59,939 bases of DNA from a virus (Duplodnaviria > Caudoviricetes). The DNA lies in IMG/VR virus record IMGVR_UViG_3300050016_000385, positions 1-59,939 of that record. The stretch is one strand, 5' to 3'. A program made the position numbers and the translations under genes. Of this stretch, positions 421 through 21,927 are shown in pieces; the first letter of the stretch is position 1; each line of letters begins with the position of its first letter. The notes beneath the pieces were generated by a model. It ran no database searches. It was not told the DNA's origin and worked only from the letters and a program-made list of their open reading frames with translations.

Positions 421-497
421 AAGTGAGCTTATTCGCGCCCTCTGTGTACCAGCTAGATTCCCTCGGTACCCAGGTCTGGTAGAGTGGGGGAGTTCGC

Positions 498-535: not shown

Positions 536-541
536 GGGAAT

Positions 542-1846: not shown

Positions 1847-1849
1847 AAA

Positions 1850-2032
1850 TTACTGCGGTGGCTGCTGGTAGTGCGCAATCGTACCCATCGCCCACTGCGC
1901 AAAGGAAACGACGACGAGAACGGCCGGCTGATATTTTGCGGGGACGACTTTTCCGGCGAGGTTGCCGATCTGAATTGCCGTGGCCGCCGCCTGCGCGACG
2001 GTGTGCCAGTTCAACCAAGAGGGAAGTTTCAT
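1850..2032 (-). CDS. putative holin
   Basis: 60 aa, two hydrophobic segments, directly after endolysin. Confidence 0.5.
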   Translation of the reverse strand: MKLPSWLNWHTVAQAAATAIQIGNLAGKVVPAKYQPAVLVVVSFAQWAMGTIAHYQQPPQ

Positions 2033-2093
2033 AGTGAGTGTTTTCCTTTTCTACCTACTACCAGAACCCAGATTGGATAAAAACGATTAGCTA

Positions 2094-2579
2094 TTAGCTT
2101 TGGGGCACAGACGGCGGCGCTGCGGCGGGCGGAGCAGCGACATATTCCTCGTAGACTCCGAGAACTTTGAGCGCGCGGTTCGGATCGGTGGCCCAGCTCT
2201 TTGACACTTCCTCAACGAAGCTCCGCGCGTCGGTGGCCCGCAACGCCGCCGCATAATGCGGGTAGGCGTTCGAGAGCCGTTCGAGGGTCGCCAGGCGGTC
2301 GGCGAAACAGGCGCGCCAGTCGGGGTACTTCACCCAGTTCGCGCTGCACGCCACCCACTTGCCGTCGAGACATTCCTCGGTGGGCAGCGTCATCGTGCCA
2401 AACACCGGGTGCGCGTGCTGTTTCATCCCAAAAAGATTATTGTCTTCGCGCGCGAGCTGGCTGTGCCCCCAAGTGGATTCGAGAGCGGCTTCGCAGGCGG
2501 CCATCTGAGGGAAGGGATGGTTCGCCTTCGCCGCCGCGGCCGTCGCGAGATCGAGAAAAGTACGCTGTTGGCTATTCAT
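2094..2579 (-). CDS. endolysin, glucosaminidase family (GH73, FlgJ-like catalytic domain)
   Basis: AALESTWG catalytic Glu, NNLFGMK, W/YATDP motifs. Confidence 0.9.
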   Translation of the reverse strand: MNSQQRTFLDLATAAAAKANHPFPQMAACEAALESTWGHSQLAREDNNLFGMKQHAHPVFGTMTLPTEECLDGKWVACSANWVKYPDWRACFADRLATLERLSNAYPHYAAALRATDARSFVEEVSKSWATDPNRALKVLGVYEEYVAAPPAAAPPSVPQS

Positions 2580-2583
2580 TGGC

Positions 2584-9600: not shown

Positions 9601-9745
9601 AAAAGACCACCGGGGCGAACGGGACGACGTGCAGCAGCCCCCCTCCTGGGTTGAGTTCGGCCACGCCCTGAAAAGATTGCACCTGCGCCACGAGAGGAGA
9701 GGACCACGCGAGCGCCAGCGCCACGAGCAAGAGAATGCGTTTCAT
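6641..9745 (-). CDS. Sec-signal tailspike/tail-fibre-like protein
   Basis: MKRILLLVALALAWSSPLVA|Q; N-terminal ADVNGNFGVYAAPGNY resembling particle-binding domains; LILPNGTRVRGSG beta-helix cap; fibre-tip-like C-terminus; 28 Cys. Confidence 0.75.
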   Translation of the reverse strand: MKRILLLVALALAWSSPLVAQVQSFQGVAELNPGGGLLHVVPFAPVVFCNAPATGGTPCTNLATTYNSMTGSQACAPGQGTIPTTNICSSVADVNGNFGVYAAPGNYTYYFQANGVWRGPYNASLGGSGAGNPNLTFSGTNSTFSGPVNLNGGPLTVYEPTTSVIGFDPDPFCAYVFPEGFGLDQMCDLNGTLFWNPFGLTGQGQAVLTARYQPANPANGQFYVWNNGIGHVDLELPPNTLIDPITGALQATFVGPTANNNPACNVNGVTYSTLAGCVGYFATNNSGGRIDHNLGAEDITVNPFQLGMGAEVKLGKGIHSGGANHPCGTANLNCYVAEVPLILPNGTRVRGSGLVQQEHDPSEGTMITYGTSFPSPLGSPVVPTPTQSASGGSLSDGTVYFVTSEVNNLQTNSSYTAAQGTPGVGLHSSEFSITLNGGGSSESITVPAPTVLGSGSFVASEYYVYATSGFTGTVTTSAGVLGACPANCVQVTAGSNFSQNEDVSLIAGTPIVINSVTYYLLQIYSPTIASLMSSPGTQSGVTYTSSLAAWQQVLIGTNGTCASSRIGLMDPTGCLLTAATTVTTLAGTGEPPLPVDVSNPLIVIGDQNGTKLEFSVSLEDVSLNLTNGSSATTAVPTANAPATVIYVNSAQEGSYMKTVDITGASQQSYAVFSNDAPNFAFTDSITGGGPNGYSGTLNCTSATPAVCTVASGNPVGNWWGATIKITGSSCASSICQVQSVNSATSITLTTATGSLTGAAYCMGTTGACSASTTGGNFIDYVIDGTLNPSAIANGTLREFRNVSVSSKGGVGVFSEALVRGQKAAPVFTDSHFEQNASSGNDCVTTTAKASAILIGDKHQCYTAVLHMTATASATSGAVLNAENIGTGFLTENDNIAAGTGNCLGTNSDCNNPGANVFGTTINGAHMGGSTSISGAVTLGTAPVGCTPLTSTLCGVGSIGSGVSTNTDLNGELTMSGGTKSYTFLNTNYAVHPTCVGSDETAIAAVEVTYTAGTSVTFTTSGATDVVSYSCDIRK

Positions 9746-9775
9746 GGGATTCACTGTTTAAGTTTGTGGGTTGAG

Positions 9776-10852
9776 TTAGTGGCGGCCGATCCTGATCGGC
9801 TTGCGTTTCGATTGGTCGAGACGGGAAAGCGTCTGGGCGTAGCGAATGTTGGCCGAGGTCAAATCGCCTTGTTCCACCAGTGGCGCGACGGCTTCGGCGG
9901 CCGTCTCTTTGGCGCTCTTGTAGGCTGGCTCGGGGTGCGACATGACTAGATACTTACCGGCATCGAGTGCGTGGTTGTCTTTCTGGACAATGGCTTCGGA
10001 GGTGTTCCGGCTCAGGAGTTGCTGTGCCGTCAGCTTCACCCGCCGCATCCGCATCATCTCCCACAGCAGGTTCGGGCAATCCCAGTTGTGCAGGCCGGGC
10101 TGCGGACTCTCGGAGAAGTTGCGACACACGATTTTCAATGTCGGCTGCCGGTGTTCGAGGTCGCGCCAGTGCATCAACACACGTTCTCCGAAGCTGATGT
10201 CGGAGTGGTCGCCGTGAAAGGGAGAAAAAATCTCGATGCCGTTCTCTACGTAAATCTCGTTCAGCGATTTCGCCCGCTCGTCTTTTCGCGTGGGTACGTT
10301 GGCTTGGGCGTTCAACGGGAAGATCGATGGGTCGGCATAACAAACCGAGATGCGGCGGATGTCGGCCATCTGTTTCAGCGTAATGGCGTGCTCCCAGATT
10401 TCCCGCCCCGGCTGGTAATATTCGCCGCAGAAAAACAAGTTGCCTTCGTAGTCGCAGTAGACCCGTTCCATCGACGTGGGATTCGCGCGTCCGTGGTCAA
10501 ACCCTGCTTCCACTCTCCACTTCGGATCGGGCTGCCAGCGCGGGTCTTCGATGACGATTTTCTTCCAGTGCGTGACCAGGGTGTCGGCCAACACCAGCTC
10601 GCCGCCGCCCGCGTTGTCTATAATTTCCTGCTCGCGATCCCATGACGCCTGCGAGGTATATTTGCGCCGCTCCTGCAGCTTCCACTCCGGGTTAATGTCC
10701 GGATCGCGCGCGGGATCGGCGGAGTAGTGATGACGAATCACCGGGATGCCGCCCTTGGTGCGGCGCAACGTAATCCCGCGCACAATCTCCACCTGCGTCT
10801 GCGGCGGCATCTTCTTGGTCCGCTCCAGAGCTGCGGCGACTTTGCTACTCAC
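9776..10852 (-). CDS. terL: terminase large subunit, C-terminal RNase H-like nuclease part
   Basis: GFDHGRANPT, YADPSIF, KDNHALDAGKY acidic nuclease motifs. Confidence 0.85.
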   Translation of the reverse strand: MSSKVAAALERTKKMPPQTQVEIVRGITLRRTKGGIPVIRHHYSADPARDPDINPEWKLQERRKYTSQASWDREQEIIDNAGGGELVLADTLVTHWKKIVIEDPRWQPDPKWRVEAGFDHGRANPTSMERVYCDYEGNLFFCGEYYQPGREIWEHAITLKQMADIRRISVCYADPSIFPLNAQANVPTRKDERAKSLNEIYVENGIEIFSPFHGDHSDISFGERVLMHWRDLEHRQPTLKIVCRNFSESPQPGLHNWDCPNLLWEMMRMRRVKLTAQQLLSRNTSEAIVQKDNHALDAGKYLVMSHPEPAYKSAKETAAEAVAPLVEQGDLTSANIRYAQTLSRLDQSKRKPIRIGRH

Positions 10853-11561
10853 AATTCACCACGATGTCGTGACGCGCGTCGGCAAACCAGCCGGGACCGG
10901 CCGAGGAGTTGAAAATGATTTTCTCGGGGCCCGCCGCAAGATATTCGTTGTAGCACTCGCCCGCATCCGGCTGGAACGAACTCTCGTCGCTCATCACTGC
11001 CCAGGGGTGATAGGAGCGCATCTGGTCGGCTCCGCCGGGAATGCCGACGACATAGCCTCCAGCCGCCCACTGGCAAGAGAGATCGGATTGCGAGTGCAGC
11101 GGCTTCGATAACGGGTAAGCACCCTGCAGCCACTGCGGCTGCTGCGAATACAAACATTTGACGTACTTGATGAGCTGACGGGCTTTCTCTTCCTTCTGGC
11201 ACTGCAGCACCACGCCGCGCATGGCGACGGTCATCGCATTGATCGTGAGATAGGCGACGATGGCCCAGGACTCCATCATAGTGCGGGATTTCTCGAACCA
11301 TAAAACCGGCTCGCTCGAAGCCAGCAGTTCGAAGATGGCCGGAAAATCGGGGCGCTCCGCCGCCGAGGGGAAGGATTCGTAAGGACTCGATCTGCCTTGT
11401 TTGACCCACTGCTCGTTGTAAGTCTTGGTGTATTGAGTGACCCAAGCGTAGGCGTCACGCGTGGCTTCCCTAGCGCGTTCCGCCAGTTCTTGCGAAGGCT
11501 TACTTCGCTGAATCTGGCTGAGCCGGAGGCGCGCCGTGGCCCGATAAAACTCGGGCTGCAA
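10845..11561 (-). CDS. terL: terminase large subunit, N-terminal ATPase part (start uncertain; TTG 11561 proposed, ORF open to 11645)
   Basis: EKSRTMMESW deviant Walker A, VMSDESSF Walker B, FNSSAGPGWF coupling motif. Confidence 0.8.
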   Translation of the reverse strand: MQPEFYRATARLRLSQIQRSKPSQELAERAREATRDAYAWVTQYTKTYNEQWVKQGRSSPYESFPSAAERPDFPAIFELLASSEPVLWFEKSRTMMESWAIVAYLTINAMTVAMRGVVLQCQKEEKARQLIKYVKCLYSQQPQWLQGAYPLSKPLHSQSDLSCQWAAGGYVVGIPGGADQMRSYHPWAVMSDESSFQPDAGECYNEYLAAGPEKIIFNSSAGPGWFADARHDIVVNCE

Positions 11562-12054
11562 CTGACTTCGGAACAAATCCCGTGTCGGCGAACTCCCGAA
11601 GTTCCTCTTCGCTCCAACCGGCGAACATGTCTGTGTCTCGATCATTTTTGGCGCTGAGGCCGAAAATATCCTTCAGTTCCCGCAAGGCCGCCACGCGAGC
11701 TGAGTCGCTGTCGCCCTTTCGGGCGATGTCGGCGTTCAACATGATGATTTCGTTTCTCCCAATATCCACCACCCGCGCCAGGCGTTTGCCCGATTCGTCG
11801 ATCATCGCGGCCAGCTTCTTCTCGCAGGCTTCGCGGATGTGCGGCTTCGCCATCAACTCCGAGCCCAGCACGGAAGGGTTGTTCGATTTCGGGTAGGCGA
11901 TTTTGGCGGCTTTGCTTTGATTGCCTTTGAACGCCTCAACGAAGGCCAGTTCCTTCGGCGTCCAGGTCGGCTGTTTGCGCGGACCCTTGGGGCCAGTCTT
12001 TTTCTTGGGGCCTGCCTTCTTCGGCTGAGACTTCTTAGCTGGCTTCTTCGGCAT
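11500..12054 (-). CDS. terS: terminase small subunit
   Basis: WTPKELAFVEAF-GNQSKAAKIAY-ELMAKPHIREA HTH pattern, RVAALREL; directly upstream of TerL. Confidence 0.85.
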   Translation of the reverse strand: MPKKPAKKSQPKKAGPKKKTGPKGPRKQPTWTPKELAFVEAFKGNQSKAAKIAYPKSNNPSVLGSELMAKPHIREACEKKLAAMIDESGKRLARVVDIGRNEIIMLNADIARKGDSDSARVAALRELKDIFGLSAKNDRDTDMFAGWSEEELREFADTGFVPKSVAARVLSGHGAPPAQPDSAK

Positions 12055-13414
12055 CGTCCTGAATGGGGAGGAAGAAGTGTCCTCCGAGTTTGATCGGCTC
12101 ACCCGCGCCCTTCACTCCGGCGGCGGCGAGAATGTCTTTGATCTTCTGGGAACGGCCCTGCTTGCCCGGTTGGTTGCGGGATTCGTTGCGCGCGTTGAAC
12201 TTGTCCATCGCATCGTCGTGCGCCGATTTGTTGTCGGCCATCGCTTGCTCTGCGGTCTCGTCGTTTCCCGTCGCTTCCGCTTCGCGGCCCTGCTCATAGG
12301 TCTGGTGCGTCGTGTCGTCCACGTCGTCGATGTCTTGGGGAATGACCTGCACTTCCGCGCTGGTCTCGGGAGAGACTTGTGTCTGCAGGGTGTGAGAGCG
12401 GAATCCGTAGTCGGGATCGCCGTTTTGGAAACGGTCGGATTCGTCAATCACCGGAGCCTGGTCTTTCAGGTTTTGAACGACTTGATCTTTCGCTTCCGGG
12501 GAATCGACGGCGATGCGCCCGGCGAGGAGATCGGTCTGGGTGTTCGGGGCTTTGCCTTCGGTCTGCGCTTTTTGCCGCGCGCGGCTGGCTTCTTTCTTCG
12601 AACGGACTCCGGCGACTCTCGCCCCCTTTACCCCTGTGGTTCCGGCTTCGAGCAGACGGCGGAATTTCGGGGCTTGGGCGGTAGCTGTCGCTTGAGCCCG
12701 TGCCAGATCAGCGGAGGAGTGGGTGACGACGCGGCCGCTTTGCGGATCAGACGTTCCGACTGAAGCGCCGGGACGAACAGCGGTTGGTGAACGCTCTTGT
12801 GCCGTGGCAGCAGGAGGTATCGGCTGCCGACTTTCTGTACGGTTCCCCCCGGCATTGCCAACGGATTGACGATCATCCCCTTGGGTGCCCCGAGGATTAT
12901 CGAGCGACTCTGCTTTCGCTTCTTCTCTTGCGTCATGGTCTTCCACTGTGCCGTTGACGATCTTGGCTGCTAGAGTCTGCGCCGATTTGGGATCGTGGGC
13001 AAGCTCCACCTTGCCGTGAACGATCACCTTGCCGTTGTGCGACATGATCCACTTCGAGGCCGAGTCGTGGGCTTCGGAAATCAAGCGCGCTCTCTGGGTT
13101 TCTGGATGCGCGGCAATGGCGCTGGCGATGGCGCGGGTATGCACGGCGTCGAGCTGGTTGCCGAACGTTTCTTCCGGCGTGGGCTGGGGCGGGCTGGGCG
13201 GCAATCCGTTGGCGACGCGGCTCGACATCTGCTCGACGTGATTCGCTAAACTCATGGCTCGGACGGCATCGCGAAGATCGCTGTGGGGCAAGGCTTTCGG
13301 CGGTGCTTGCGGGGGCATCTTCGGCGTGACAAGGCTCGGCAGAAAGGTGGCCACGGCCTTCTTTCCGTCTTCGTGGGCTTGCGCGAAGGGATCGAGTTGA
13401 GGAAAAGCGCTCAT
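12035..13414 (-). CDS. probable virion/ejected protein with RelA/SpoT-like nucleotidyltransferase domain
   Basis: RSKKEASRARQK, DLLAGRI, YGFRSH, AEVQV, HQTYE in synthetase order (about 12280-12670); AGGAG RBS. Confidence 0.75.
   Translation of the reverse strand: MSAFPQLDPFAQAHEDGKKAVATFLPSLVTPKMPPQAPPKALPHSDLRDAVRAMSLANHVEQMSSRVANGLPPSPPQPTPEETFGNQLDAVHTRAIASAIAAHPETQRARLISEAHDSASKWIMSHNGKVIVHGKVELAHDPKSAQTLAAKIVNGTVEDHDAREEAKAESLDNPRGTQGDDRQSVGNAGGNRTESRQPIPPAATAQERSPTAVRPGASVGTSDPQSGRVVTHSSADLARAQATATAQAPKFRRLLEAGTTGVKGARVAGVRSKKEASRARQKAQTEGKAPNTQTDLLAGRIAVDSPEAKDQVVQNLKDQAPVIDESDRFQNGDPDYGFRSHTLQTQVSPETSAEVQVIPQDIDDVDDTTHQTYEQGREAEATGNDETAEQAMADNKSAHDDAMDKFNARNESRNQPGKQGRSQKIKDILAAAGVKGAGEPIKLGGHFFLPIQDDAEEAS
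12628..12936 (-). CDS. candidate overprinted +1-frame gene inside RelA/SpoT-domain gene
   Basis: ATG after GGAAG; host frame is a low-complexity linker with many A/T-ending codons. Confidence 0.45.
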   Translation of the reverse strand: MTQEKKRKQSRSIILGAPKGMIVNPLAMPGGTVQKVGSRYLLLPRHKSVHQPLFVPALQSERLIRKAAASSPTPPLIWHGLKRQLPPKPRNSAVCSKPEPQG

Positions 13415-13504: not shown

Positions 13505-13873
13505 ATGAAACGCTGGTTGCTGGTCTCGTTACTCACGCTTCCGCTCTTTGGGCAATCCTTCATCAACGACGATTGCTACCAGTTCAAAATCCATCTCACC
13601 GCATACGATAGTCAATCTTCAAACGATTCGGTAGCCGCCCGCGCTCAAGGAGCCGTCGATGCAAGCACCAGTCTCGGCTATGTGGTAGGGGTAGCAGATG
13701 CGCTCGATGGGCAAGCCTTTTGCCTGCCTGACGGCTTTCGCGCGGGAGAGCTGAAACAGGTCGTCATCAGGTACTTTGATGAGCATCCGACCATTCTGCA
13801 CGAATCGAAGGTCCGGGGTATCCGTGCTGCATTTACTGCCGCCTATCCCTGCCCCGCGCCAAGCGCTCACTGA
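13505..13873 (+). CDS. Rap1a/Tai-family immunity-like secreted protein
   Basis: Signal peptide MKRWLLVSLLTLPLFG|Q; GYVVGVAD...FCLP...VVIRYFDEHP...AFTAAYPC; GGGGGAG RBS. Confidence 0.85.
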   Translation: MKRWLLVSLLTLPLFGQSFINDDCYQFKIHLTAYDSQSSNDSVAARAQGAVDASTSLGYVVGVADALDGQAFCLPDGFRAGELKQVVIRYFDEHPTILHESKVRGIRAAFTAAYPCPAPSAH

Positions 13874-16800
13874 CCCGCCGCCTTCTTCATCTGCAGCTTC
13901 GCGGTCGTGAGTTCCTCATCGAGCGCGTCCGCCGATTGCAAGAGTTGCGAGCGTGAGGTTCTGAGGTCTTCGAGCGCCCGCTTCCGGTCAGCATACGGGA
14001 TCTCGGCGATCTTCACCCGCTCCATTTCGGTGTCGATACTCTTGAGGTCTTTCCCGAGCTCCGCAAGGTCCTTGTTGAACATCAGATACGGAGCCTTCGC
14101 CGGTTCCTGGACGAATCTCTCAGCCGCGTCCGGTTCGCGCTCCGCCAGCGTACTCAAGGTCTGTGAATATCCCATCGCCTTCGCTTCGTTCGCTTTTAAT
14201 CTTTCTTCCGCGCCGGATTTGTAATTCGTGACGCCGATGACGCTGCCCGCGACAGTGGCCCGGTCTAGGCTCTCGAAACTCGTATCAAGGAAGCGGCTCA
14301 CGGCGGGCAGGGCTTTGACCACGGAGAAGGCCAGCATCTTTTCTAGCTTACGCGTAGGCAGCACCGTACCGGGAATGTTCGCATCTTCCGGTCGCCAGAT
14401 TTCTTTTTCTCCGCCTAAGTACTGACGGTTTGAGAGTAGTTCAGTAGCAACGCCGATATCCGGACGCAGATCGCCCGCCAGTCCGCCGCCGCCGCGCAGC
14501 ATGCCTTGTCCTGCCGCACCTGCAATGTCTCGCGTGTCGCCGCCTTCGAGTGCGGCTCGTCCGGCCGCAAGGATAGGTTCGACCAGATGCAGCGCCATCG
14601 GCTCGGTGATTAACCCCGTGCGGTACTTGCGGTCGCCGTAGTGCAGATAGCTGTAGTCGTATTTGTCGGAGTCGCGGTTCTTGCCCGCTTTGTTGAGCGC
14701 GAGGTTTGCGCCCATAACAACCAGCGCAGGGAGCGCCGTCTTGATGGGGTGACGCAGGAACCATTTCAAGCTGGAGAAGTCCCAGCCGGGGAAGAGAAGT
14801 GCCCGCCCCCAACGTTTCATGCGCTCGGTCCAGTTGGCTTTGTTGTAGTTGCCGAAGCCGTCCTCGACGTTCTTGGCGGCTTCCTCTTCGTTCATCCCGG
14901 CGCGGGCATGCAGGAAGTCGTAGGCCAGCACACGGGCTTTTTGGTCGAGCCCGCCGAAGCCTCTGAGGAACTTCGGATCGAACAAAACGCCTTTCGAGAA
15001 CTTGCCGATGGTCCAGCGCGCCCAATTCCTCGGGTCCATATTGCCGAGAACGTAGTCGTGCAGGCTGCCAATATCTTTGGTGTTGGTGTAGGTGCCCCAC
15101 TTCGAGAGCGTGTCGATGGCGTCGTCGGCCAGCCCTTCGGCCATGCGCTCCCGCAGTTCCTTCGAGAAGAAAAGCCTCTGGTAGTAGGGCCATACGCGCG
15201 GGTCCCAGGCTCCGGCTCCCACCGTCGTAGCCAATCGCCGCATGATGTTCAAGACGTGGATGTTGGGGCCAAACAAGCCCACGATCTGATCCTGGAAGAA
15301 GCGCCGGATGGAGTTGCCCTCTTCCGCTCCCCGCGTCATGTCGTAGTGCTCTAAAGCGTCCACCACGTCTTTTGGCGCGAGGTAGCGGTCCAGGGCGCTG
15401 ATCCCCGGCCTGCCGGTGGTCGTCGTGCTCCAGCCGTTCTCGAAATCCCGGATCATCACCTTGTCGTCTTTGGCGGGGTCGTAAGCGCGGTATTCGAGAA
15501 TCTTCTTGGGGCGGTTCTCCGGCTTCGCCAGCTTCATCGACTTGGCGACGTCGGGAGAGTAGTAGGTCTGGCCCCGGTACTCGATCTGCGGCGGCTGGGC
15601 GGTGCCTTCCTTCCACTTCGTTGCTTCGTCGGTGAGCGAGTCGTAAATCTTCTGGTTCAGCGCGGCGTGGTAGGCCTGGGTGAAGCTCTTGACGTAGCCG
15701 GAGAAGTCCTTCGCGCCGTGCTCGTAGAAGTATTGTGCGGTGGCGATGCGCTGTTTCTTGTCGGGGCGGGGGGCTTTGATTCCACCGTAAGATGCGCCCA
15801 GCGAGGGGCCTTCGTCGGTGCGTCCCATCAGCGGTTCGCGCTTGTGCTCGGGGTAGGTGCGCTTCAGATGGTCGAGCACTTCGCCCACTTCTTCGGCGTA
15901 TTCCTGTGCGTCTTTTTGCGATTTGCCGAAGGTCTCCACTTCGTTGCCGTCGCGGTCCACCACCGACCAGTCTCCGTTTTCATCTTCAAGCGTCGAGAGG
16001 TCGCGGCGAACGTGCCAGCCGAGCGAGATGCGGATCGCCGCCAACTCGTCCTGGTACTGCTTGAACTGCTTCACGGCGTCCATCACAGCCGGATCGTCCT
16101 GCGCTTCCTGGAACTGCTCCGGGTGATTCTCCTCTAAGAATTCTCGGGAGTCGGAGTCGGCCATCATCGCGGCGAGCCGGACTTGCGACTCATTCAGTCC
16201 CTTGGCCACCTGCTCCACGTTCGATTCCGCTTTGGCGTGGAAGTAGCGCGGGGCGTTGTCTTTCTCTTTCAGCATCGTTGCGATGGCGGGGTCGTGCTCG
16301 GCGACTCGCTTGTATTTGTCGCCCAGGTCGAGGTTCCGGTCGATGATGCGGTTGATGAATTTCGCGTAGACGGCTTTGGCGGCGGAGAGGGAAGGGGTGA
16401 GGGTGCCGGATTCGCCGGTGAGAAGAGACTCGCGGTCTTCCTTCCGGTGTTCCGGCTTAAATAGCGAAGTCCCTCGGTCACGCTGCTGCGAAGGAAGTTG
16501 AATGCCGCGCTCTGCTTTGGGATTGCCGACGATCTCTCCGAGGTCGCCCGCGCCAAAGAGCGTGGGCTGCTGCTCGCGAGTTTCGCCGCCGGTGAGCGCG
16601 AACGGTTCTGTCGGTTCGGGCTTGGGTTGACTCAGTTGATCGAGCTGACTCTGATAGACGAGGCCCTTTTGCTCTTTGCCGCCGCGTCCGGCGCGGAAGA
16701 CGCGCATCACGGATTGATTGCCGCCGAAGATGTCGAGTTGTTCTCCCGCCGGTTCGACGCGGAAGCCTCTCGATTTCGACCAGTCCTCTAACTCTTCGTC

Positions 16801-19800
16801 GGTGAGGCCGATGGGCTGGGTGGAGTAGGCAGGGCCTTTAGTCGTGGAAGAAGGTCCTTTATCGGCTTTCCCTGTGTCGTCCGGTGGGCCGCTATCCTTT
16901 GCACCAGGTGCACGATTTCGTTCTTCAGTTCCGAGCTGGGCTTCGCTTTGTACTGTTGCTCCAGTTCGTCCCAATGCTTTTCCAGTCCCTCGAGCAATTG
17001 TTCGGGCGAGAGCCGCTTCCCCGGCTCGCCGGATGGCCAGAACTTCTGGGTGATGGGTGACATTGGTTTCTCTCTCGGTGTCGTTAGCATAATCCTGAAT
17101 CGCCTGTAGTTCGTTCAGGTGTTCGATGCCATAGTGTGCCAACGCGGATTCAAAATATACCTTGGCGGCTTCCAAGGCGTCAGTGATGCTGACGCCCTCA
17201 AGCGCTGCCTCACCGCGCATGATGTCCACGATGCCCTCAGCCACGATTGTGGACGCGGGGGCCGGAAGCCCAGCGGCGCGCAACTGCGGAACGATGGAAT
17301 TGGCCCCGAGTTCGGCAAACGCGGGCATTTTTAGACTCTCTTGCCACGGTACGCCGAACCCGATATTTCCTTTTCCGGCGCGGCGTTGCGCGGAGTGGAT
17401 GAGTTCTTCGTGAGCCGTCCCAATTTCTCTAGGGCCTTGGCGTACCAGATTGACGCCCGCGTTCGGGTCGCGGTCGAGTGCCTCATCGAGCGCATCCGCC
17501 AGCCCTCTTAGCTGACGGATTGCTTTTGCGTCAACCTTATTCGCCTCCGCCGATGAGGCAGCGCTTCGCAGCGCCGCGGACGCCCGCCCGACACTGGCCT
17601 TGTCGATGTTTACACCGAGAAAAGCGTGTCCCAGCGAGTGGCTGATGGCTTTTGCCGCAGCGTCATTCACGCGCAAATATGGCGCGATCCCAGCCCTGGT
17701 CTCGATCAGGTCAAAGTTGATGTCTTTGGCGGTGCGCGCAGACAGTGGAAGCGGTTCGTGGAAGACGGGCTGGGCACCGGAGAAGAGGTCTACTGAATCG
17801 TCGGGCTTGGGGGAGTGTGTAACGCCTTCTGGAGGCTCTGGTGTTCCTTCATGTCGTTCAGTACCGCTTCCTTCTCCGCCGCCGAGAGTTTTGGATACTT
17901 CGGCGCGGATGCGGCTGTAGGCTTCGGATTTGACGCTTGCGGCGTTGTCGCCGTCGGCGAGTTGCCGGGCGGATTCATCGAGGATGTTTGCAATTGGCCC
18001 TCCGCGCGCGCTCAGGCGATTATAGACTTCTTCCGCTTGCGCTGCGCCAGTTGAAAGTTGTTTCGATTTCTCCACGTCAATCTTGTTGCCGCCGCGTTCC
18101 AGTTCCGAGGCCCGGTCGCCCTTCGAGACGAAGCCGAAGAGTTTCTTATCTTTCGCCAATTGCTGTTTGATGTGGGCGGAGATCTCCGCCTTCTCTAAGG
18201 CGAGCGAGCGGTTGATCTGCTGGGTTCCGAAAAGATCAGCGGTGGTCTCGGTCGTTTGCCCGGAGCCTTTCACCAGGCGAATCAATTCCGAGAGTGTGTC
18301 GTCGGAGACTTTCTTTCCTGAACGCTCTTTGCGTTCGACTAAATCGAGAACCGCTTTTTGTTCTGCCGGGTCGCTGGTTGCTTCTCCGATGACGACGGCG
18401 CGGCCTTGCGTGAGATCACCCTGCACCACCTGGTTGAAGATGGGTTCGCTGAGATTTGCCAGTGCGACTCCCTTGGCGACCGTGGCTTCGCCGAGCGAGA
18501 TGCCCTTCTCTTTCAAGTCAGCGGGGGTAATGGCGGAATCGCGGAAGAACTTCGCCGCGTCGAGAGCCGTGCCGCGCCCGTCTGCAATGTTTTGTTCCGC
18601 TCCGATGGCGCGGGCGGCGTTGGCGGTCGGAGCAACGATATGCCGGACGACCAGAGTCTTCACTCCCAAACGCTTCGCCAGTTCGTAGCGGTGATGCCCA
18701 TTCACCACGTAGGTCTTGCCGTCGGAGAGATCGCGCCACACCGAGACCATCCCGGCCAGATCGGGATTCCAGACCTTCGTTTCCTTGAGCAACGTGCCTA
18801 CGCCTTCGGCATCGGTCGAGAGTTTGTACTGGAATTTGTTCGGCGCGACTTTCAGGTCGCGGATGTTCATCTCTCCCACGCGGCCCGGTTCGGGCGGAAG
18901 CCCTAAGGTCTGGCGTTCGCGCTCGGGCTTCGTTGGCTCGGGGGCGAGAGACTTCTTTGCGGCTGGCGCTTCCTCGACTTCATGTGCGGCAAATTCACGG
19001 ACAGGCTTCGTCTCACCTTTGGCCGCAATCGTCTCAGCTTGTGGCGCTTGTGTCTCGCTGGCCGGTTTCGATGCCGGTTCCCCCTGCCGCGACGGAATTA
19101 CGAGTGGGCCGGCCGCTGGGTTGCCTTCACGAGCGAGAGGCTTGATTTGTTCCCGGATGGAACGACCGCCACGAACAATGTCTTCGTCGCTGAGTTTCGG
19201 GAATTGTCCACGCAGCCATTCCATGTAGCGACCGTGCGCTTTGTTCGGCGTACTCTGGGCCACGGTATAGAGGGCTAGATCGCGCGGGTCTTCAAACTGC
19301 AACTGGAATAATTTGTCCTGATAGCCGTAACGCGGTTTTGCTCCTGCAAGGTCGCGTGGCAATGCCGGAGCCGCAGCGGTCGTCTCACCTTTCCCTTCGA
19401 GCTTCACCACCTGCTGATTGCCTTGTCTATCCGTGATGGCAATTTCCGACACCGGGAACTTCTGCCCGGACGTCACACTCATCCCCACATAACGGCTGGC
19501 TTTCTCCGGCTTCACGTAGGCGACAGTTGCGTGCGGCTTGTAGTCGAAGTTCGGCTCGCTGAAGTCGCCGTGCTTTTCCAGTTCCGCGTTGATCTGGTGC
19601 AACTCCGGGGCAACGATGGGGGCGTGGATCACGGCGGCGCCGTCGGAGTGTTCGCTGGGCGGGAAAGTTTCCGTTGGTCCAAGAGAGGCTTCAAACGGAG
19701 CGAGCGATGCGAGATACTTCTTTACTCCTTCAACGTCTTCACCCTTGATCCCGTAGCGGACGGTGACGTGGTTGCCGCCTACGTCGATGCCGTCTCCGGC

Positions 19801-21927
19801 GAGGTCTTCTTTCGAGATCCGCGCACGGGCAGTCGAGAGGGCTTTCGCGGCGGGAGATTCGTCGGGGATATTGGCTTGGGTGGAACCGAACTTGTACTTC
19901 TCGGCGGGAGTTGTTTCAGTAACGCGCTCACCATTTGCAGCAGGAGACGCCGGAGCCTGGTTCGTCTGCGCCGCGACAGATTCCGGTTCAGATGGAGCGT
20001 TATCTGCGCCTGCATTGGCTGATTCTACCGCCTTCAGCCCTTGAACTTCCTTCGCACCCACAAACCTTTCCGTCTTGCCATCTACCGTGACCGTGACCAC
20101 GGGAGATTTTCCTTGGGGAGAAACGTACTTCACTTCTCCCGAGCGGCCGTCGGGAAGGGTTACGGAGTCACCTTTTTGGAACGAAGACTCTTTTTCACCC
20201 TCCGGAGCACTTGCTGGAGCAACTGATTGAGGAGTTGGGGCGGGGCTTGGTCGAGCAACTGATTCAGTGCCTCCGCTTGGGCCTGTCGGTCGGGCAGCGG
20301 CCAGTGCCGCGGCGGGAGCGTTCGATACTGCTGGGGCAGTTTCACCCCTCGATTCTACCGCAGGCGCGGCTTCTTCCACTTCGTCCGCTCGGAACTCAGG
20401 AATAGCTGCTGCTTGCGTTTCTGTGGGCCGTGTGAAGACAATCCCCTTGCTATCGGTCTGAAGCACCCCCTCGCCAACCATGCGATTCAGAACGGCCTTT
20501 GCATTCTCGTAGCCCAGTTTCAGGTTGCGCTGGAGGACGGTCGGCGACACACGCCCATGCTGGTCTAAGAAGTCTTCGACGGCCGCTTTTGCATTCTCGT
20601 AGGTGAAGGCCTGAGGCGAGACTCCGGGAGGCTGGGCGACTGCTGGAGCGGGTGAAGGTCGGGGAGCTTCTACGGGGGCTTCTGGCGGCGCGGGCGCCGG
20701 TGTCTGCGCGGCTTCGCGGTCGGCTACATACATCGCTTTGGCTACGTCGGGATCGCCGAGAGGCTTGTCCGGGGATGCCGACTTCGCCATGTATTCGGCG
20801 AGTTGGGGGCGAGTCAGCTTCGATATGTCCGCCACTACATCGTCGGCATGGCTGGTTGCTGCTCGGGCGCGGGCGTTGAACTCGGCAGTTGCGGAGGCTC
20901 GTCTGGCGGCTTCTGCGGGAGAAACCTGCGGCAGTTCCGCGCCTGCTCTTTTGTAAGCACCTTTCTGACGTAGGGAGTCGATTATCCCTGGTGGATTCTG
21001 GCGGAGTATCTCTCGTGCCGCATACCGGGCCTCGGCTTCGGATGCGAACGAGACCGGGTTGCGCTGGGCGTCCCGGATGTAGCCGCGCTTCCACAGCAGA
21101 TCGGTGAGCGCGTCTTCGGGACTGGCCGCAGATCGCAACCCGCCGTGAGCAAAACCGCCAGCAAACCCTCCGGCGATGCCACCGACCTCTTGCAGCAGTG
21201 CCTTGGTGTCGGGTGAGGCTTTTACCGCGTCGGCCAGCTTTCCCGCGCCGTAACTTCCTGCCTCAGCGCCAGCACCCGCGAGGAGGGCGAGTTCCGGCTG
21301 TGCGACCGCCCCCGCGATCATCACCGGGGTTGCGACATCCGTCGCTCCTCTCAGAATCTCCGTTGTGCCTCGTTCTGCTTGCTCCTGGTAGGTTCCAGGT
21401 TTCCTGGGATCGGGCGGAAGGTCCTTCACTCCGTGGTAGAGTTCAGCGGCACCGCGATAAGGGCGCAGAAGGGGATCACTGAAACTAAGATCGTAGGCGG
21501 CTTCTTGCGGCGTAGCCTTGCCTGGGTTTGTGAATTTTGGACCCACAGGCACGGGAACGGCCCCCGGCTCCTCTACGTTGACGTTCGGCTGCGCGGGCGC
21601 GGCCAACGTTCGATTCGGCCGCGGCGTGGCGACTACTTGTTCGGGATGCGGATTCTCTAGACTTCCACTCGTGGGCTGGATCGTGAGCGGCATTCTTGCG
21701 CGGCGTTCTTCTTGCTCGGTGATTAAACCTTCAGCGACCGGACGCGGTGCGGGCGGAGTCGGGCCGAGAGAAAGACGCGGAGACACAGGCGCTACCGGGG
21801 CAGGGGACTGCGGACGCGCCACCTGATCGAGCGCAGCCGAAGATTGCTGCGTCGTGGGCGCTTCCTCTACCTGGTCCGCCGAGTAACTCGGGGCTTCTTC
21901 GACTTCGCTGAGTGCGTAGGACGACAT
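13867..21927 (-). CDS. large polyvalent internal virion (ejection) protein: FtsK-gamma-like wHTH, KOW/SH3-like, 2H phosphoesterase, ParB-like, zincin-like domains
   Basis: 2686 aa in the T7 gp16/P22 gp16 position; motifs LQRNLKLGY, HVT/HAT, VVNGHHRY, HEELIH. Confidence 0.85.
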   Translation of the reverse strand: MSSYALSEVEEAPSYSADQVEEAPTTQQSSAALDQVARPQSPAPVAPVSPRLSLGPTPPAPRPVAEGLITEQEERRARMPLTIQPTSGSLENPHPEQVVATPRPNRTLAAPAQPNVNVEEPGAVPVPVGPKFTNPGKATPQEAAYDLSFSDPLLRPYRGAAELYHGVKDLPPDPRKPGTYQEQAERGTTEILRGATDVATPVMIAGAVAQPELALLAGAGAEAGSYGAGKLADAVKASPDTKALLQEVGGIAGGFAGGFAHGGLRSAASPEDALTDLLWKRGYIRDAQRNPVSFASEAEARYAAREILRQNPPGIIDSLRQKGAYKRAGAELPQVSPAEAARRASATAEFNARARAATSHADDVVADISKLTRPQLAEYMAKSASPDKPLGDPDVAKAMYVADREAAQTPAPAPPEAPVEAPRPSPAPAVAQPPGVSPQAFTYENAKAAVEDFLDQHGRVSPTVLQRNLKLGYENAKAVLNRMVGEGVLQTDSKGIVFTRPTETQAAAIPEFRADEVEEAAPAVESRGETAPAVSNAPAAALAAARPTGPSGGTESVARPSPAPTPQSVAPASAPEGEKESSFQKGDSVTLPDGRSGEVKYVSPQGKSPVVTVTVDGKTERFVGAKEVQGLKAVESANAGADNAPSEPESVAAQTNQAPASPAANGERVTETTPAEKYKFGSTQANIPDESPAAKALSTARARISKEDLAGDGIDVGGNHVTVRYGIKGEDVEGVKKYLASLAPFEASLGPTETFPPSEHSDGAAVIHAPIVAPELHQINAELEKHGDFSEPNFDYKPHATVAYVKPEKASRYVGMSVTSGQKFPVSEIAITDRQGNQQVVKLEGKGETTAAAPALPRDLAGAKPRYGYQDKLFQLQFEDPRDLALYTVAQSTPNKAHGRYMEWLRGQFPKLSDEDIVRGGRSIREQIKPLAREGNPAAGPLVIPSRQGEPASKPASETQAPQAETIAAKGETKPVREFAAHEVEEAPAAKKSLAPEPTKPERERQTLGLPPEPGRVGEMNIRDLKVAPNKFQYKLSTDAEGVGTLLKETKVWNPDLAGMVSVWRDLSDGKTYVVNGHHRYELAKRLGVKTLVVRHIVAPTANAARAIGAEQNIADGRGTALDAAKFFRDSAITPADLKEKGISLGEATVAKGVALANLSEPIFNQVVQGDLTQGRAVVIGEATSDPAEQKAVLDLVERKERSGKKVSDDTLSELIRLVKGSGQTTETTADLFGTQQINRSLALEKAEISAHIKQQLAKDKKLFGFVSKGDRASELERGGNKIDVEKSKQLSTGAAQAEEVYNRLSARGGPIANILDESARQLADGDNAASVKSEAYSRIRAEVSKTLGGGEGSGTERHEGTPEPPEGVTHSPKPDDSVDLFSGAQPVFHEPLPLSARTAKDINFDLIETRAGIAPYLRVNDAAAKAISHSLGHAFLGVNIDKASVGRASAALRSAASSAEANKVDAKAIRQLRGLADALDEALDRDPNAGVNLVRQGPREIGTAHEELIHSAQRRAGKGNIGFGVPWQESLKMPAFAELGANSIVPQLRAAGLPAPASTIVAEGIVDIMRGEAALEGVSITDALEAAKVYFESALAHYGIEHLNELQAIQDYANDTERETNVTHHPEVLAIRRAGEAALARTIARGTGKALGRTGATVQSEAQLGTEERNRAPGAKDSGPPDDTGKADKGPSSTTKGPAYSTQPIGLTDEELEDWSKSRGFRVEPAGEQLDIFGGNQSVMRVFRAGRGGKEQKGLVYQSQLDQLSQPKPEPTEPFALTGGETREQQPTLFGAGDLGEIVGNPKAERGIQLPSQQRDRGTSLFKPEHRKEDRESLLTGESGTLTPSLSAAKAVYAKFINRIIDRNLDLGDKYKRVAEHDPAIATMLKEKDNAPRYFHAKAESNVEQVAKGLNESQVRLAAMMADSDSREFLEENHPEQFQEAQDDPAVMDAVKQFKQYQDELAAIRISLGWHVRRDLSTLEDENGDWSVVDRDGNEVETFGKSQKDAQEYAEEVGEVLDHLKRTYPEHKREPLMGRTDEGPSLGASYGGIKAPRPDKKQRIATAQYFYEHGAKDFSGYVKSFTQAYHAALNQKIYDSLTDEATKWKEGTAQPPQIEYRGQTYYSPDVAKSMKLAKPENRPKKILEYRAYDPAKDDKVMIRDFENGWSTTTTGRPGISALDRYLAPKDVVDALEHYDMTRGAEEGNSIRRFFQDQIVGLFGPNIHVLNIMRRLATTVGAGAWDPRVWPYYQRLFFSKELRERMAEGLADDAIDTLSKWGTYTNTKDIGSLHDYVLGNMDPRNWARWTIGKFSKGVLFDPKFLRGFGGLDQKARVLAYDFLHARAGMNEEEAAKNVEDGFGNYNKANWTERMKRWGRALLFPGWDFSSLKWFLRHPIKTALPALVVMGANLALNKAGKNRDSDKYDYSYLHYGDRKYRTGLITEPMALHLVEPILAAGRAALEGGDTRDIAGAAGQGMLRGGGGLAGDLRPDIGVATELLSNRQYLGGEKEIWRPEDANIPGTVLPTRKLEKMLAFSVVKALPAVSRFLDTSFESLDRATVAGSVIGVTNYKSGAEERLKANEAKAMGYSQTLSTLAEREPDAAERFVQEPAKAPYLMFNKDLAELGKDLKSIDTEMERVKIAEIPYADRKRALEDLRTSRSQLLQSADALDEELTTAKLQMKKAAGQ
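16788..17063 (-). CDS. candidate overprinted +1-frame gene (91 aa, helical)
   Basis: MSPITQKFW...LSPEQLLEGLEKHWDELEQQYK...ELKNEIVHLVQRI; GAGAGAG RBS, TATGCT upstream; genome-typical codons in +1 frame. Confidence 0.6.
   Translation of the reverse strand: MSPITQKFWPSGEPGKRLSPEQLLEGLEKHWDELEQQYKAKPSSELKNEIVHLVQRIAAHRTTQGKPIKDLLPRLKALPTPPSPSASPTKS
17790..17993 (-). CDS. candidate overprinted +1-frame gene (67 aa)
   Basis: TATAAT (18019-18024), GGAGG 5 nt before TTG; helical LSAAEKEAVLNDMKEHQSLQKAL. Confidence 0.4.
   Translation of the reverse strand: MQTSSMNPPGNSPTATTPQASNPKPTAASAPKYPKLSAAEKEAVLNDMKEHQSLQKALHTPPSPTIQ
19779..20015 (-). CDS. candidate overprinted leaderless +1-frame gene (78 aa)
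   Basis: TAGAAT (20022-20027) 6 nt before ATG; RLRRLLLQMVSALLKQL. Confidence 0.35.
   Translation of the reverse strand: MQAQITLHLNRNLSRRRRTRLRRLLLQMVSALLKQLPPRSTSSVPPKPISPTNLPPRKPSRLPVRGSRKKTSPETAST
20160..20345 (-). CDS. candidate overprinted leaderless +1-frame gene (61 aa)
   Basis: TAGAAT (20352-20357) 6 nt before GTG; AEALNQLLDQAPPQLLNQLLQQVLRRVKK. Confidence 0.45.
   Translation of the reverse strand: MKLPQQYRTLPPRHWPLPDRQAQAEALNQLLDQAPPQLLNQLLQQVLRRVKKSLRSKKVTP

What the first reader, a model, noticed from the sequence alone, without database searches (positions are those of the whole stretch)
16788..20357. Series of small +1-frame genes overprinted in linkers of the 8-kb polyvalent gene
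Seen: four same-strand ORFs, all in the +1 frame (20345-20160, 20015-19779, 17993-17790, 17063-16788). Each lies at a linker next to an effector-like domain, encodes an amphipathic helix and has expression signals (TAGAAT, TAGAAT, TATAAT plus GGAGG, TATGCT plus GAGAGAG). In 17063-16788 the host frame uses atypical CGA/ACA/GGA/GCA codons while the +1 frame uses genome-typical CTG/GAG/AAG/ATC. Inference: each toxic module carries an internally promoted antidote or regulator and moves as a dual-coded cassette. I know no description of this. Caveats: -35 boxes are poor and short +1 ORFs arise by chance.
Basis: partly seen in the sequence, partly recalled or inferred. Interest (0 to 1): 0.8.

Follow-up and report, generated by a model that had tools for sequence, protein, structure and literature searches.

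The report
Small genes hidden inside phage gene
An 8-kb prophage gene for a giant multi-domain protein also encodes, in a second reading frame within the floppy linkers between its domains, at least two small conserved proteins, an unusual layer of hidden genes.

Summary
Within the window alone they are not more than chance: the +1 frame holds 16 ORFs of 40 aa or more, and a synonymous-codon shuffle gives as many and longer ones.

Relatives change the verdict for two of them. ORF4 (17063-16788) is open in 7 of 7 loci with an intact host frame, each with an ATG and a GGAG-type ribosome site. Its +1 peptides are far better conserved than the host-frame peptides over the same bases (mean z 6.3 against 1.9). 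ORF3 (17993-17790) is open in 21 of 21 loci, and codon-position conservation flips to the +1 frame.

ORF1 and ORF2 share a nucleotide-level start module, TAGAAT-N6-ATG/GTG. Their coding status is unproven.

A census of 51 related giant genes finds 10 +1 families better conserved than the host frame, and none in the +2 frame.

The antidote or regulator function is untested. Expression is not shown. Four literature searches found no prior description.

The parts
13867..21927 (-). Host gene: a 2686-aa multi-domain ('polyvalent') protein of an Acidobacteria prophage. It is one open frame through all linkers.
   Evidence: ORF list and translation. Pfam 2_5_RNA_ligase2 at aa 720-837 and a weak FtsK_gamma match at 453-490. 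PHROG phrog_21 at aa 1011-1325. Relatives of 1520-3422 aa carry source names such as ParB-like, 2'-5' RNA ligase and phosphatase. Related loci lie in IMG/VR viral contigs and Acidobacteria MAGs.
16788..17063 (-). ORF4: an embedded +1 gene of 91 aa counted from the conserved ATG at 17063. An upstream ATG at 17090 would give 100 aa. The product is predicted to be a three-helix protein.
   Evidence: The +1 frame is open 73-150 codons in 7 of 7 loci with an intact host frame, ending at the same stop. Smith-Waterman z over the same bases for 21 pairs: +1 6.3, host 1.9, +2 1.2. ORF position 3 is the least conserved in nucleotide alignments made without regard to frame. phmmer finds called small proteins P0027, P0028 and P0031. 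AlphaFold2 gives pLDDT 75 with helices 20-40, 44-64 and 71-76.
17070..17076 (-). GAGAGAG, a weak Shine-Dalgarno-like site 6 nt before the ATG at 17063. Relatives have AGGAG, GGGAG or GGAG at 6-10 nt.
   Evidence: Upstream sequences of the seven loci.
17790..17993 (-). ORF3: an embedded +1 gene of 67 aa from the TTG at 17993, or 62 aa from the ATG at 17978. The product is a coil followed by one helix.
   Evidence: The +1 frame is open 51-99 codons in 21 of 21 non-redundant loci. There is no +1 stop in codons -20..+14 in any of them. AlphaFold2 gives a helix at residues 33-54 with pLDDT 91-94.
17839..17898 (-). Conserved core of ORF3 (+1 motif Y-P-K-L-S-x-x-x-K-x-x-V-L-x-x-x-K), over the host linker just after ...EVSKTL.
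   Evidence: Nucleotide identity by host position 1/2/3 flips from 0.55/0.60/0.41 upstream to 0.42/0.55/0.59 here. The +1 Leu is identical in 21 of 21 loci. Mann-Whitney p = 1e-4. BLOSUM62 per column is 0.70 for host against 1.50 for +1, p = 6e-4. GC by host position is 0.71/0.63/0.33.
17999..18003 (-). GGAGG, 5 nt before the TTG at 17993.
   Evidence: Sequence read directly.
18019..18024 (-). TATAAT, formed by host codons Tyr-Asn of the conserved EEVYN. A possible -10 box for ORF3.
   Evidence: Sequence. The same site in relatives reads TATAAT in 6 of 21 loci, and mostly TAYRAT otherwise, by my reading of the printed codons. Suggestive only.
19779..20015 (-). ORF2: a +1 ORF of 78 aa with an Arg-rich N-terminal helix-like part. 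Coding status is uncertain.
   Evidence: One relative at L049:1976-2209, 41% identity. Mismatches by host position 1/2/3 are 20/14/14 of 47 each, not significant.
20016..20028 (-). Start module of ORF2: G-TAGAAT followed by a 6-nt spacer that ends just before the ATG at 20015. Host frame reads V-E-S-A-N-A.
20160..20345 (-). ORF1: a +1 ORF of 61 aa with a GTG start, Gln/Leu-rich. Coding status is uncertain and no relative was found.
   Evidence: No tblastn hit in any fetched locus. No word-sharing protein of 33-107 aa in the 5.8-billion-protein set. Host GC3 here is 0.38-0.42.
20346..20358 (-). Start module of ORF1: G-TAGAAT followed by a 6-nt spacer that ends just before the GTG at 20345. Host frame reads V-E-S-R-G-E.
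17395..17412 (-). HEELIH (HExxH-like motif) in the host module upstream of ORF4. A possible embedded metallopeptidase, with no family match.
   Evidence: Seen in the translation. E127, E128, H131 and R135 are invariant in alignment A1. The first His is replaced in P0019 and P0023. No Pfam hit.
16528..16830 (-). Conserved host module STQPIGLTDEELEDWSKSRGFRVEPAGEQL..., directly after ORF4. The ORF4 stop lies inside its first codons.

Best explanation
The 8-kb gene encodes a phage polyvalent protein whose domains are joined by disordered linkers. Because those linkers tolerate almost any hydrophilic sequence and automatically lack +1 stops, they serve as coding space for small proteins read in the +1 frame (overprinting).

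ORF4 and ORF3. In this window ORF4 (17063-16788, 91 aa, three helices) and ORF3 (17993/17978-17790, about 62-67 aa, one helix) are genuine genes of this kind. Each is translated from its own start codon behind its own ribosome-binding site. Each is kept under purifying selection in the +1 frame, while the host frame over the same bases drifts as a low-complexity linker. The forced A-rich third positions of the host codons there are at least partly a consequence.

ORF1 and ORF2. They start at a second, recurrent start module, TAGAAT-N6-ATG/GTG. Its geometry fits a -10 box that would place the transcript's first base on the start codon (a leaderless mRNA). They are probably expressed, but their products are not shown to be conserved proteins.

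What is shown and what is inferred. Conservation of frame, start signals and position is shown. Independent initiation is inferred from sequence. I also infer that the small proteins act together with the module they travel with (ParB-like for ORF3; the HExxH-bearing and STQPIGL modules for ORF4), for example as an inhibitor, chaperone or regulator in the producing cell. I give that last step about 0.3.
For: ORF4 family:
- The +1 frame is open 73-150 codons in 7 of 7 loci with an intact host frame.
- The ATG lies 3-8 codons after the previous +1 stop in 5 of 7 loci. In the window the conserved second ATG lies 17 codons after it and in L011 53.
- A GGAG, AGGAG, GGGAG or GAGAG site lies 6-10 nt upstream of the ATG in 7 of 7.
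- Over identical bases, mean Smith-Waterman z of 21 pairs is 6.3 for +1, 1.9 for host and 1.2 for +2. Examples: L010-L012 18.2 against 2.6, and L011-L024 17.8 against -0.9.
- In nucleotide alignments made without regard to frame, ORF position 3 is the least conserved: pooled 0.52/0.53/0.45, and 0.66/0.66/0.44 for L010-L012.
- P(open | host protein) is 0.09-0.28 per locus, product 4e-6 if the loci were independent.
- The host frame is the ancestral one at the ORF's 5' end (VLAIRRAGEAALARTIA is shared with P0007, P0008 and P0011). So this is dual coding, not a compensated frameshift.

ORF3 family:
- 21 of 21 loci are open.
- The conservation pattern flips to +1 with p = 1e-4, and +1 BLOSUM exceeds host with p = 6e-4.
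- A start with GGAGG, AAGGA or AAGGAGG at 7-9 nt upstream is present in most loci.

Start module TAGAAT-N6:
- 10 of 44 distinct TAGAAT sites on the coding strand have ATG or GTG exactly 6 nt on, followed by an ORF of 53-104 aa. On the other strand it is 0 of 45.
- Of 46 V-E-S tripeptides in 51 genes, 11 are spelled GTAGAATC, and 9 of those 11 carry the start. Only 3 of the 35 spelled otherwise do. GTA is 16% of Val codons.

Generality:
- In 51 non-redundant giant genes, 100 of 178 similar +1 ORF pairs are better conserved in +1 than in the host frame by more than 3 z. They form 10 families, one of them in 17 loci.
- In the +2 frame it is 0 of 3 pairs.
- SD-like 4-mers precede 25 of 40 (62%) family members, against 46 of 265 (17%) other +1 ORFs and 7 of 43 (16%) +2 ORFs.
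Against: - No expression evidence of any kind. No RNA run holds the stretch, so promoters, transcripts and translation are all inferred.
- Within the window the ORFs are no longer or more numerous than a synonymous shuffle gives.
- Low host GC3 is common to linkers whether or not +1 is open, so the codon argument alone is worthless.
- The related loci share ancestry, so products of per-locus probabilities overstate significance.
- No embedded peptide matches any Pfam or PHROG family. The ORF4 model has no structural match at E <= 0.001.
- Helical predictions for amphipathic sequences are cheap.
- The window has lost the canonical ORF3 start: AAC GCC stands where relatives have AAT G. It must use the TTG at 17993 or the ATG at 17978, as L026 does.
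- ORF1 has no relative. In the single ORF2 relative both frames are about equally conserved.
- For whole ORF3, the z of +1 and of host are similar, because its 5' half overlies a conserved host helix.
Confidence: 0.8

Rival explanations
1. All four ORFs are chance by-products. Linkers lack hydrophobic residues, so they lack +1 stops. The similarity of +1 peptides between relatives merely mirrors nucleotide homology.
For: The shuffle null is not exceeded in the window. All 85 +1 stops need a T at host position 2. Alternative-frame peptides over conserved host domains give tblastn hits as by-products, for example the +2 ORFs at host aa 1063-1136 and 2104-2495. Low GC3 is general in linkers.
Against: This does not explain why the +1 frame is much better conserved than the host frame over the same bases. 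It does not explain the 3-periodic conservation with host position 1 most variable. It does not explain the ATG plus SD in 7 of 7 ORF4-family loci, nor the SD enrichment of 62% against 17%. The +2 frame shows no such families. The rival remains viable for ORF1, and partly for ORF2.
Confidence: 0.08
2. The +1 regions are reached by programmed +1 ribosomal frameshifting from the host frame. This would give truncated polyvalent isoforms with alternative C-terminal tails rather than free small proteins. The internal GGAG would act as a frameshift stimulator, as in prfB (recalled).
For: The ORFs are in the frame a +1 shift would reach. SD-like sequences inside genes are known stimulators of frameshifting (recalled; the review PMC5009743 appeared in the listing but was not read). 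A shift would end the protein exactly at a module boundary.
Against: A +1-frame stop lies 3-8 codons before the conserved ATG in 5 of 7 ORF4-family loci (17 codons before it in the window). In all ten TAGAAT-N6 sites it lies exactly 4 codons before. That leaves only a tiny window for a shift. An ATG or GTG is conserved at a fixed place, which a shift would not need. SD-to-ATG spacing is 6-10 nt, as for initiation. No conserved slippery motif was seen.
Confidence: 0.06
3. The conserved stretches are nucleotide-level elements at module junctions, not proteins. They could be recombination 'boundary' sequences that shuffle modules, internal promoters for downstream parts of the host gene, or peptide motifs such as V-E-S cleavage sites for an embedded peptidase.
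For: The elements sit exactly at module boundaries of a mosaic gene. Polyvalent proteins are proposed to be processed by embedded peptidases (PMC5512222, passage seen). V-E-S is also conserved as a peptide.
Against: Conservation is 3-periodic and follows +1 amino-acid similarity, with conservative K/R and V/I/L/M changes. V-E-S is constrained at the codon level (GTA GAA TCN, then NAT G..), not at the peptide level: residue 5 varies among N, D, H and G, yet a start codon is always formed. ORFs after the module are 53-104 aa in 10 of 10 cases. A junction element could coexist with coding.
Confidence: 0.06

Closest known systems
Overprinted (same-strand embedded) virus genes, e.g. lambda Rz1 inside Rz in the +1 frame (recalled; PMC5295617 and PMC6139136 seen as listings)
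   Same: A small gene lies wholly inside a larger phage gene on the same strand in the +1 frame. It has its own start, and both frames are kept.
   Different: Here several embedded ORFs lie in series in one 8-kb gene, each in an inter-domain linker. The products have no Cys or lipobox, so they are not o-spanins. The host is a virion-type multi-domain protein, not a lysis gene.
Polyvalent proteins of phages and conjugative elements (Iyer et al. 2017, PMC5512222)
   Same: The host gene fits the class: a giant protein stringing together ParB-like, 2H phosphoesterase, peptidase-like and other modules in a phage context.
   Different: The terms 'overlap', 'frameshift' and 'linker' do not occur in that paper's main text. 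'Embedded', 'nested' and 'reading frame' occur only in other senses. A second coding layer is not described there.
General rule that one partner of a viral overlapping gene pair is disordered or compositionally biased (overprinting literature; PMC3494269 and PMC8227390 seen as listings and abstracts)
   Same: The host-frame partner over ORF3 and ORF4 is a low-complexity, poorly conserved linker. The embedded frame carries the constraint.
   Different: In the classic view the de novo frame is the disordered one. Here the pre-existing giant gene supplies the disordered partner, and the folded or helical product lies in the embedded frame. Which frame is older was not determined.
Leaderless mRNAs with a TANNNT -10 box about 6-7 nt before an A/GTG start, as in high-GC bacteria (recalled from work on mycobacteria and Streptomyces; no paper read)
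   Same: TAGAAT stands exactly 6 nt before ATG or GTG in 10 of 10 module instances.
   Different: No transcription start has been mapped. No -35 box was found: the promoter scan gave one unrelated site. Promoter rules for Acidobacteria are not known to me.

Membership tests
Embedded same-strand overlapping (overprinted) gene | ORF lies wholly inside another coding sequence in a different frame of the same strand | tested here: met
   All four ORFs lie at offset +1 inside 13867-21927.
Embedded same-strand overlapping (overprinted) gene | Purifying selection acts on the embedded frame: better conserved than the host frame over the same bases, with 3-periodic conservation in the embedded phase | tested here: met
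   Met for ORF4 and ORF3. Inconclusive for ORF2. Not testable for ORF1, which has no relatives.
Embedded same-strand overlapping (overprinted) gene | Own translation start signals, conserved in relatives | tested here: met
   ATG plus GGAG-type site in 7 of 7 ORF4-family loci. Starts with an SD-like site in most of the 21 ORF3-family loci. TAGAAT-N6-start for ORF1 and ORF2.
Embedded same-strand overlapping (overprinted) gene | Product shown to be made (RNA, ribosome footprints, peptide) | not testable with these tools
   No RNA holder was listed.
Two-component spanin, embedded o-spanin (Rz1 type) | Signal peptide with a lipobox Cys; host gene is an i-spanin in a lysis cassette | tested here: not met
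   P0002-P0005 contain no Cys. The host gene is a multi-domain protein with 2H and ParB-like parts.
   No family match for any embedded peptide. Toxicity of the modules is unknown. Only co-inheritance with the module is shown.
Programmed +1 ribosomal frameshift product | Conserved shift site, with no need for an independent start codon | tested here: inconclusive
   Conserved ATG and SD, and a +1 stop just upstream, argue against it. No shift site was sought beyond inspection.
Polyvalent protein (host gene) | Many unrelated effector-type domains in one polypeptide of a phage or conjugative element | tested here: met
   Pfam 2H match at E = 2.7e-9, above the cut-off. phrog_21 match at E = 7e-63. 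Relatives also carry His_Phos_1, Zeta toxin, GGDEF and ParB Pfam entries. Homologues lie in IMG/VR contigs.
Leaderless-mRNA promoter | A -10 hexamer TANNNT ending 6-7 nt before the start codon, with the transcript starting at the A or G of the start codon | tested here: inconclusive
   The geometry is met in 10 of 10 module instances. The transcription start is not testable.

The most novel reading that the evidence does not exclude
Phage polyvalent proteins carry a systematic second coding layer. Each module ships with its own small +1-frame partner protein, an inhibitor, chaperone or immunity factor, written into the adjacent linker. The partner is expressed from a compact internal start module: either SD-ATG, or a TAGAAT-N6-ATG promoter for a leaderless transcript. 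Module and partner therefore recombine as one dual-coded cassette. The conserved 'linker motifs' of these proteins (V-E-S-G-N-G; ...TL-G-x-E...) would then be shadows of the hidden genes.
Probability: 0.3. Interest if true: 0.9.

Novelty: new variant of a known kind. Interest (0 to 1): 0.8.

Why it matters
Gene callers forbid long same-strand overlaps. These small proteins are therefore invisible in annotation except by accident: P0027, P0028 and P0031 were called on public contigs.

If they are real, giant phage counter-defence proteins hide a family-rich set of small proteins: at least 10 families in 51 genes, one of them in 17 loci. That changes the gene count and the functional reading of such phages.

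It also gives a clean natural system for studying how disordered linkers serve as a nursery or shelter for overlapping genes.

It explains puzzling conserved linker motifs and rare-codon use at the nucleotide level.

The strict linkage of each small ORF to one module gives directly testable partner hypotheses for modules of unknown function.

Tried and rejected
Compensated frameshift for ORF4 (the ancestral protein read in +1). Rejected: relatives conserve the host frame across the ORF's 5' end.

The 391-aa +2 ORF at 15616-14441 as an embedded gene. It exceeds the whole-gene shuffle. However, the region has GC3 of 0.8-0.9, the frame is broken in the 76%-identical G018 relative, and the host frame is far better conserved. 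Rejected.

Family and fold searches.
- Pfam and PHROG searches of all window peptides and of 17 embedded ORFs from other loci gave nothing above cut-off.
- I had recalled a likeness of the MPxKSxAQ family to a Pfam DUF. That likeness was not confirmed and is withdrawn.
- Foldseek of the ORF4 model against the PDB gave no match at E <= 0.001, only generic helical hairpins.
- ESM Atlas on the HExxH module gave scores of 0.84 or less, leads only.

Complex prediction. ORF4 family against host aa 1381-1800 gave no verdict.

RNA evidence. No RNA holder was listed.

Searches that found little.
- Megablast of the gene against the phage collection: no match.
- The first related-loci runs with the whole protein: one distant viral locus, and none in genomes.
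- 299 genus genomes have no relative of host aa 1381-1800.
- 400 family genomes gave one more ORF4-type locus, G473/L090. By my reading of its translation it is a near-copy of L012 inside a 243-aa remnant, so it was not counted.

GC3 dip as a marker of dual coding. Rejected as a general test.

Neighbouring genes. No PHROG or Pfam hits, apart from one weak head-decoration match.

Rows set aside before counts.
- L015 is the same contig as L008.
- By the identical translations and figures printed for them, L025 repeats L016 and L033 repeats L032.
- L030 is close to L028.
- L013 and L014 have the host frame broken by stops. In L013 the +1 frame also has stops. In L014 a different +1 ORF of about 80 aa from its first ATG is open.

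Supplements of papers were not consulted.
Full report
WHAT IS THERE. The window lies in a 3.9-Mb bacterial assembly. Related loci carry record titles from Acidobacteria MAGs (Candidatus Sulfotelmatobacter, Granulicella and others) and lie in IMG/VR viral contigs of 13-80 kb. The setting is therefore an Acidobacteria prophage or phage.

The host gene runs 13867-21927 on the minus strand and encodes 2686 aa. Its recognisable parts are:
- a Pfam 2'-5' RNA ligase-superfamily domain at aa 720-837, and a weak FtsK-gamma match at aa 453-490;
- a strong match to phrog_21 at aa 1011-1325, which sources call ParB-like in relatives;
- a module with an HEELIH motif at aa 1506-1511;
- a very conserved module beginning STQPIGLTDEELEDWSK at about aa 1700;
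- a C-terminal 900 aa with GC3 of 0.8-0.9.
It fits the polyvalent proteins of Iyer et al. 2017 (PMC5512222; I saw the abstract and the passages).

THE OBSERVATION. All four ORFs exist at the stated coordinates, and all sit at offset +1. All lie in hydrophobic-poor linkers. The stated signals are present, and the host GC3 dips are real.

Taken alone, however, the window gives no excess:
- In 1000 synonymous shuffles the longest +1 ORF averages 150 aa against 100 observed. The count of ORFs of 60 aa or more averages 7.7 against 7 observed.
- Every +1 stop needs a T at host codon position 2, so linkers are open by construction.
- Linker-like windows of 51 related genes have low GC3 (0.53) whether or not +1 is open.

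ORF4.
- phmmer of the 100-aa peptide against 1.84 billion representatives found six proteins at E <= 0.001. Three were called small proteins of 82-89 aa with 43-59% identity. One was a chimera that begins in +1 and continues in the host frame.
- Relatives of the host module exist at 36-51% identity. They conserve the host frame over the ORF's first 25 codons or so, which excludes a compensated frameshift.
- DNA of relatives gave eight loci with the downstream motif. Two (L013, L014) have a broken host frame and were set aside. With the window, that leaves seven loci with an intact host frame.
- In all seven, the +1 frame is open for 73-150 codons and ends at the same stop inside the codons for ..TDEEL. 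It has an ATG preceded at 6-10 nt by AGGAG, GGGAG, GGAG or (in the window) GAGAGAG. In five of the seven that ATG is 3-8 codons after the previous +1 stop (17 in the window, 53 in L011).
- Over exactly the same bases, local-alignment z-scores against shuffles for the 21 pairs average 6.3 in +1, 1.9 in the host frame and 1.2 in +2.
- Nucleotide alignments made without regard to frame show the ORF's third position, which is host position 1, as the least conserved.
- The host protein over this stretch is a variable Gly/Ser/Thr/Pro/Glu/Arg linker.
- AlphaFold2 on ten sequences predicts three helices with pLDDT 83-88 in the core. Foldseek finds nothing specific.

ORF3.
- Twenty-five loci hold the end of the ParB-like module. 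Four redundant ones were dropped, leaving 21.
- All 21 have an open +1 stretch of 51-99 codons, and none has a +1 stop in codons -20..+14 around the host ...SKTL.
- Upstream of that point, nucleotide identity by host position is 0.55/0.60/0.41, the normal pattern. In the next 19 codons it is 0.42/0.55/0.59, the pattern of the +1 frame. The +1 residues K-L-S-x-x-x-K-x-x-V-L-x-x-x-K are conserved: Leu in 21 of 21, Ser in 81% of locus pairs.
- The flip is significant (Mann-Whitney p = 1e-4). BLOSUM62 per column is 1.50 for +1 against 0.70 for host (p = 6e-4). GC by host position is 0.71/0.63/0.33.
- Most loci start 17-23 codons before K-L-S at an ATG behind GGAGG, AAGGA or AAGGAGG. The window and L026 lack that ATG. 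They have instead GGAGG-5 nt-TTG (17993) and an ATG at 17978.
- The product is predicted as a coil plus one confident helix.
- The family stays with the ParB-like module although the following module differs between loci.

ORF1 AND ORF2.
- Both begin 6 nt after G-TAGAAT-C. These are the only two copies of that 8-mer in the window (14 of 100 shuffles give two or more, so the count alone means little).
- Across the fetched loci, 10 of 44 distinct coding-strand TAGAAT sites are followed at exactly 6 nt by ATG or GTG and an ORF of 53-104 aa, against 0 of 45 on the other strand.
- In the host frame the module reads V(or L)-E-S-x-[N/D/H/G]-x. It is constrained as nucleotides: 11 of 46 V-E-S are spelled GTAGAATC although GTA is 16% of Val codons. 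Nine of those 11 carry the start, against 3 of the other 35.
- The TAG is a +1 stop four codons before the start. TAGAAT-N6-A/GTG also has the geometry of a -10 box placing the first transcribed base on the start codon. That reading is recalled knowledge and untested.
- One pair of such ORFs (L023:3999, L046:2000) is better conserved in +1 (z 12.2 against 3.3).
- The window's ORF2 has one relative (L049), with 20/14/14 mismatches at host positions 1/2/3. That leans the right way but is not significant.
- ORF1 has no relative.
- My odds that they encode functional products are about 0.5 for ORF2 and 0.4 for ORF1.

GENERALITY.
- In 51 non-redundant giant genes (104,793 codons) there are 305 ATG-started +1 ORFs of 45 aa or more, and 43 in +2.
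- Of 178 similar +1 pairs, 100 are better conserved in +1 by more than 3 z, and 43 the other way. All 3 +2 pairs favour the host frame.
- The +1 pairs form 10 families. These include one in 17 loci (MPxKSxAQ..., mean z 18.5 against 6.0), one in 5 loci, the ORF4 family and the ORF3 family.
- Family members carry SD-like 4-mers in 62% of cases, against 17% and 16% in the two control sets. This is a line of evidence independent of how the families were defined.

MECHANISM AND FUNCTION.
- Shown: conserved +1 coding, start signals and cassette linkage.
- Inferred: independent initiation.
- Speculative: a function with the linked module. Nothing bears on toxicity or on the antidote idea.
- Rivals: chance (still viable for ORF1 and ORF2), programmed +1 frameshifting (disfavoured by the stop-then-ATG arrangement), and junction or cleavage-site elements (disfavoured by periodicity and codon-level constraint).

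NOVELTY.
- Embedded +1 genes in phages are known (Rz1 in Rz; recalled, with listings).
- The disordered-partner rule of overprinting is known (abstracts).
- I found no description of serial +1 genes in linkers of polyvalent proteins in four full-text searches or in a term search of PMC5512222.
- Those searches cover only the held open-access library.

LIMITS.
- There are no expression data.
- The loci are related by descent.
- The contexts of the called small proteins could not be inspected.

Noticed in passing
window 14441-15616 (-), +2 frame of the host gene: A 391-aa ORF (512 codons from stop to stop), far beyond the whole-gene synonymous shuffle (null maximum 82 +/- 35). It lies in the part of the gene with GC3 of 0.8-0.9. 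It is broken in the G018 relative, and its host frame is much better conserved, so it is a composition by-product.
   Followed up: yes
L019, L021, L026, L027, L029, L035 and 11 further loci (e.g. L029:9750-9905): The largest embedded +1 family (17 loci) encodes a protein of about 50 aa, MP[YF]xSxAQxxFxxAHxKKLExQGVxVxEWxxASxGxxLP, behind an AGGAG site. Mean z is 18.5 in +1 against 6.0 in the host frame. It is not present in this window. No Pfam or PHROG match. Five called proteins of 47-60 aa exist in public sets.
   Followed up: partly
window host protein aa 8-13, 19-24, 515-521 and 985-990 (within 21927-18955): A short acidic motif [DE]-V-E-E-A-(A)-P recurs four times in the host protein, twice at the extreme N-terminus. 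Relatives have other short acidic repeats at the N-terminus (P0017, P0008, P0011). It may be a short linear docking motif.
   Followed up: no
window 13867-16500 against 16500-21927: There is strong GC3 heterogeneity within one gene: 0.8-0.9 in the C-terminal 900 aa against 0.4-0.7 elsewhere. The only relative found among the sampled genomes of the genus (G018) shares just four blocks. This is a mosaic gene assembled from modules of different history.
   Followed up: partly
L014:1000-1410 and L090 (G473:C54): These are decayed remnants of the ORF4-bearing junction in other genomes. In L014 the host frame is broken but a different +1 ORF of about 80 aa from its first ATG is open. In L090 only a 243-aa host-frame remnant is left, and the 87-aa embedded ORF is intact.
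   Followed up: partly
window 1-13400 and 21934-47346: Almost all large neighbouring ORFs (358-1037 aa) have no Pfam or PHROG match. The one exception is a weak head-decoration match in 26343-29057. This is a very poorly charted phage lineage.
   Followed up: partly
L046:4835-5125, L049:4421, L066:3959, L075:4472; and L019:12024, L027:3217, L029:13092: Two further embedded +1 families, of about 90 aa and about 63 aa, have mean z of 24.8 against 6.3 and 21.1 against 4.3. They sit in other linkers of related giant genes.
   Followed up: no
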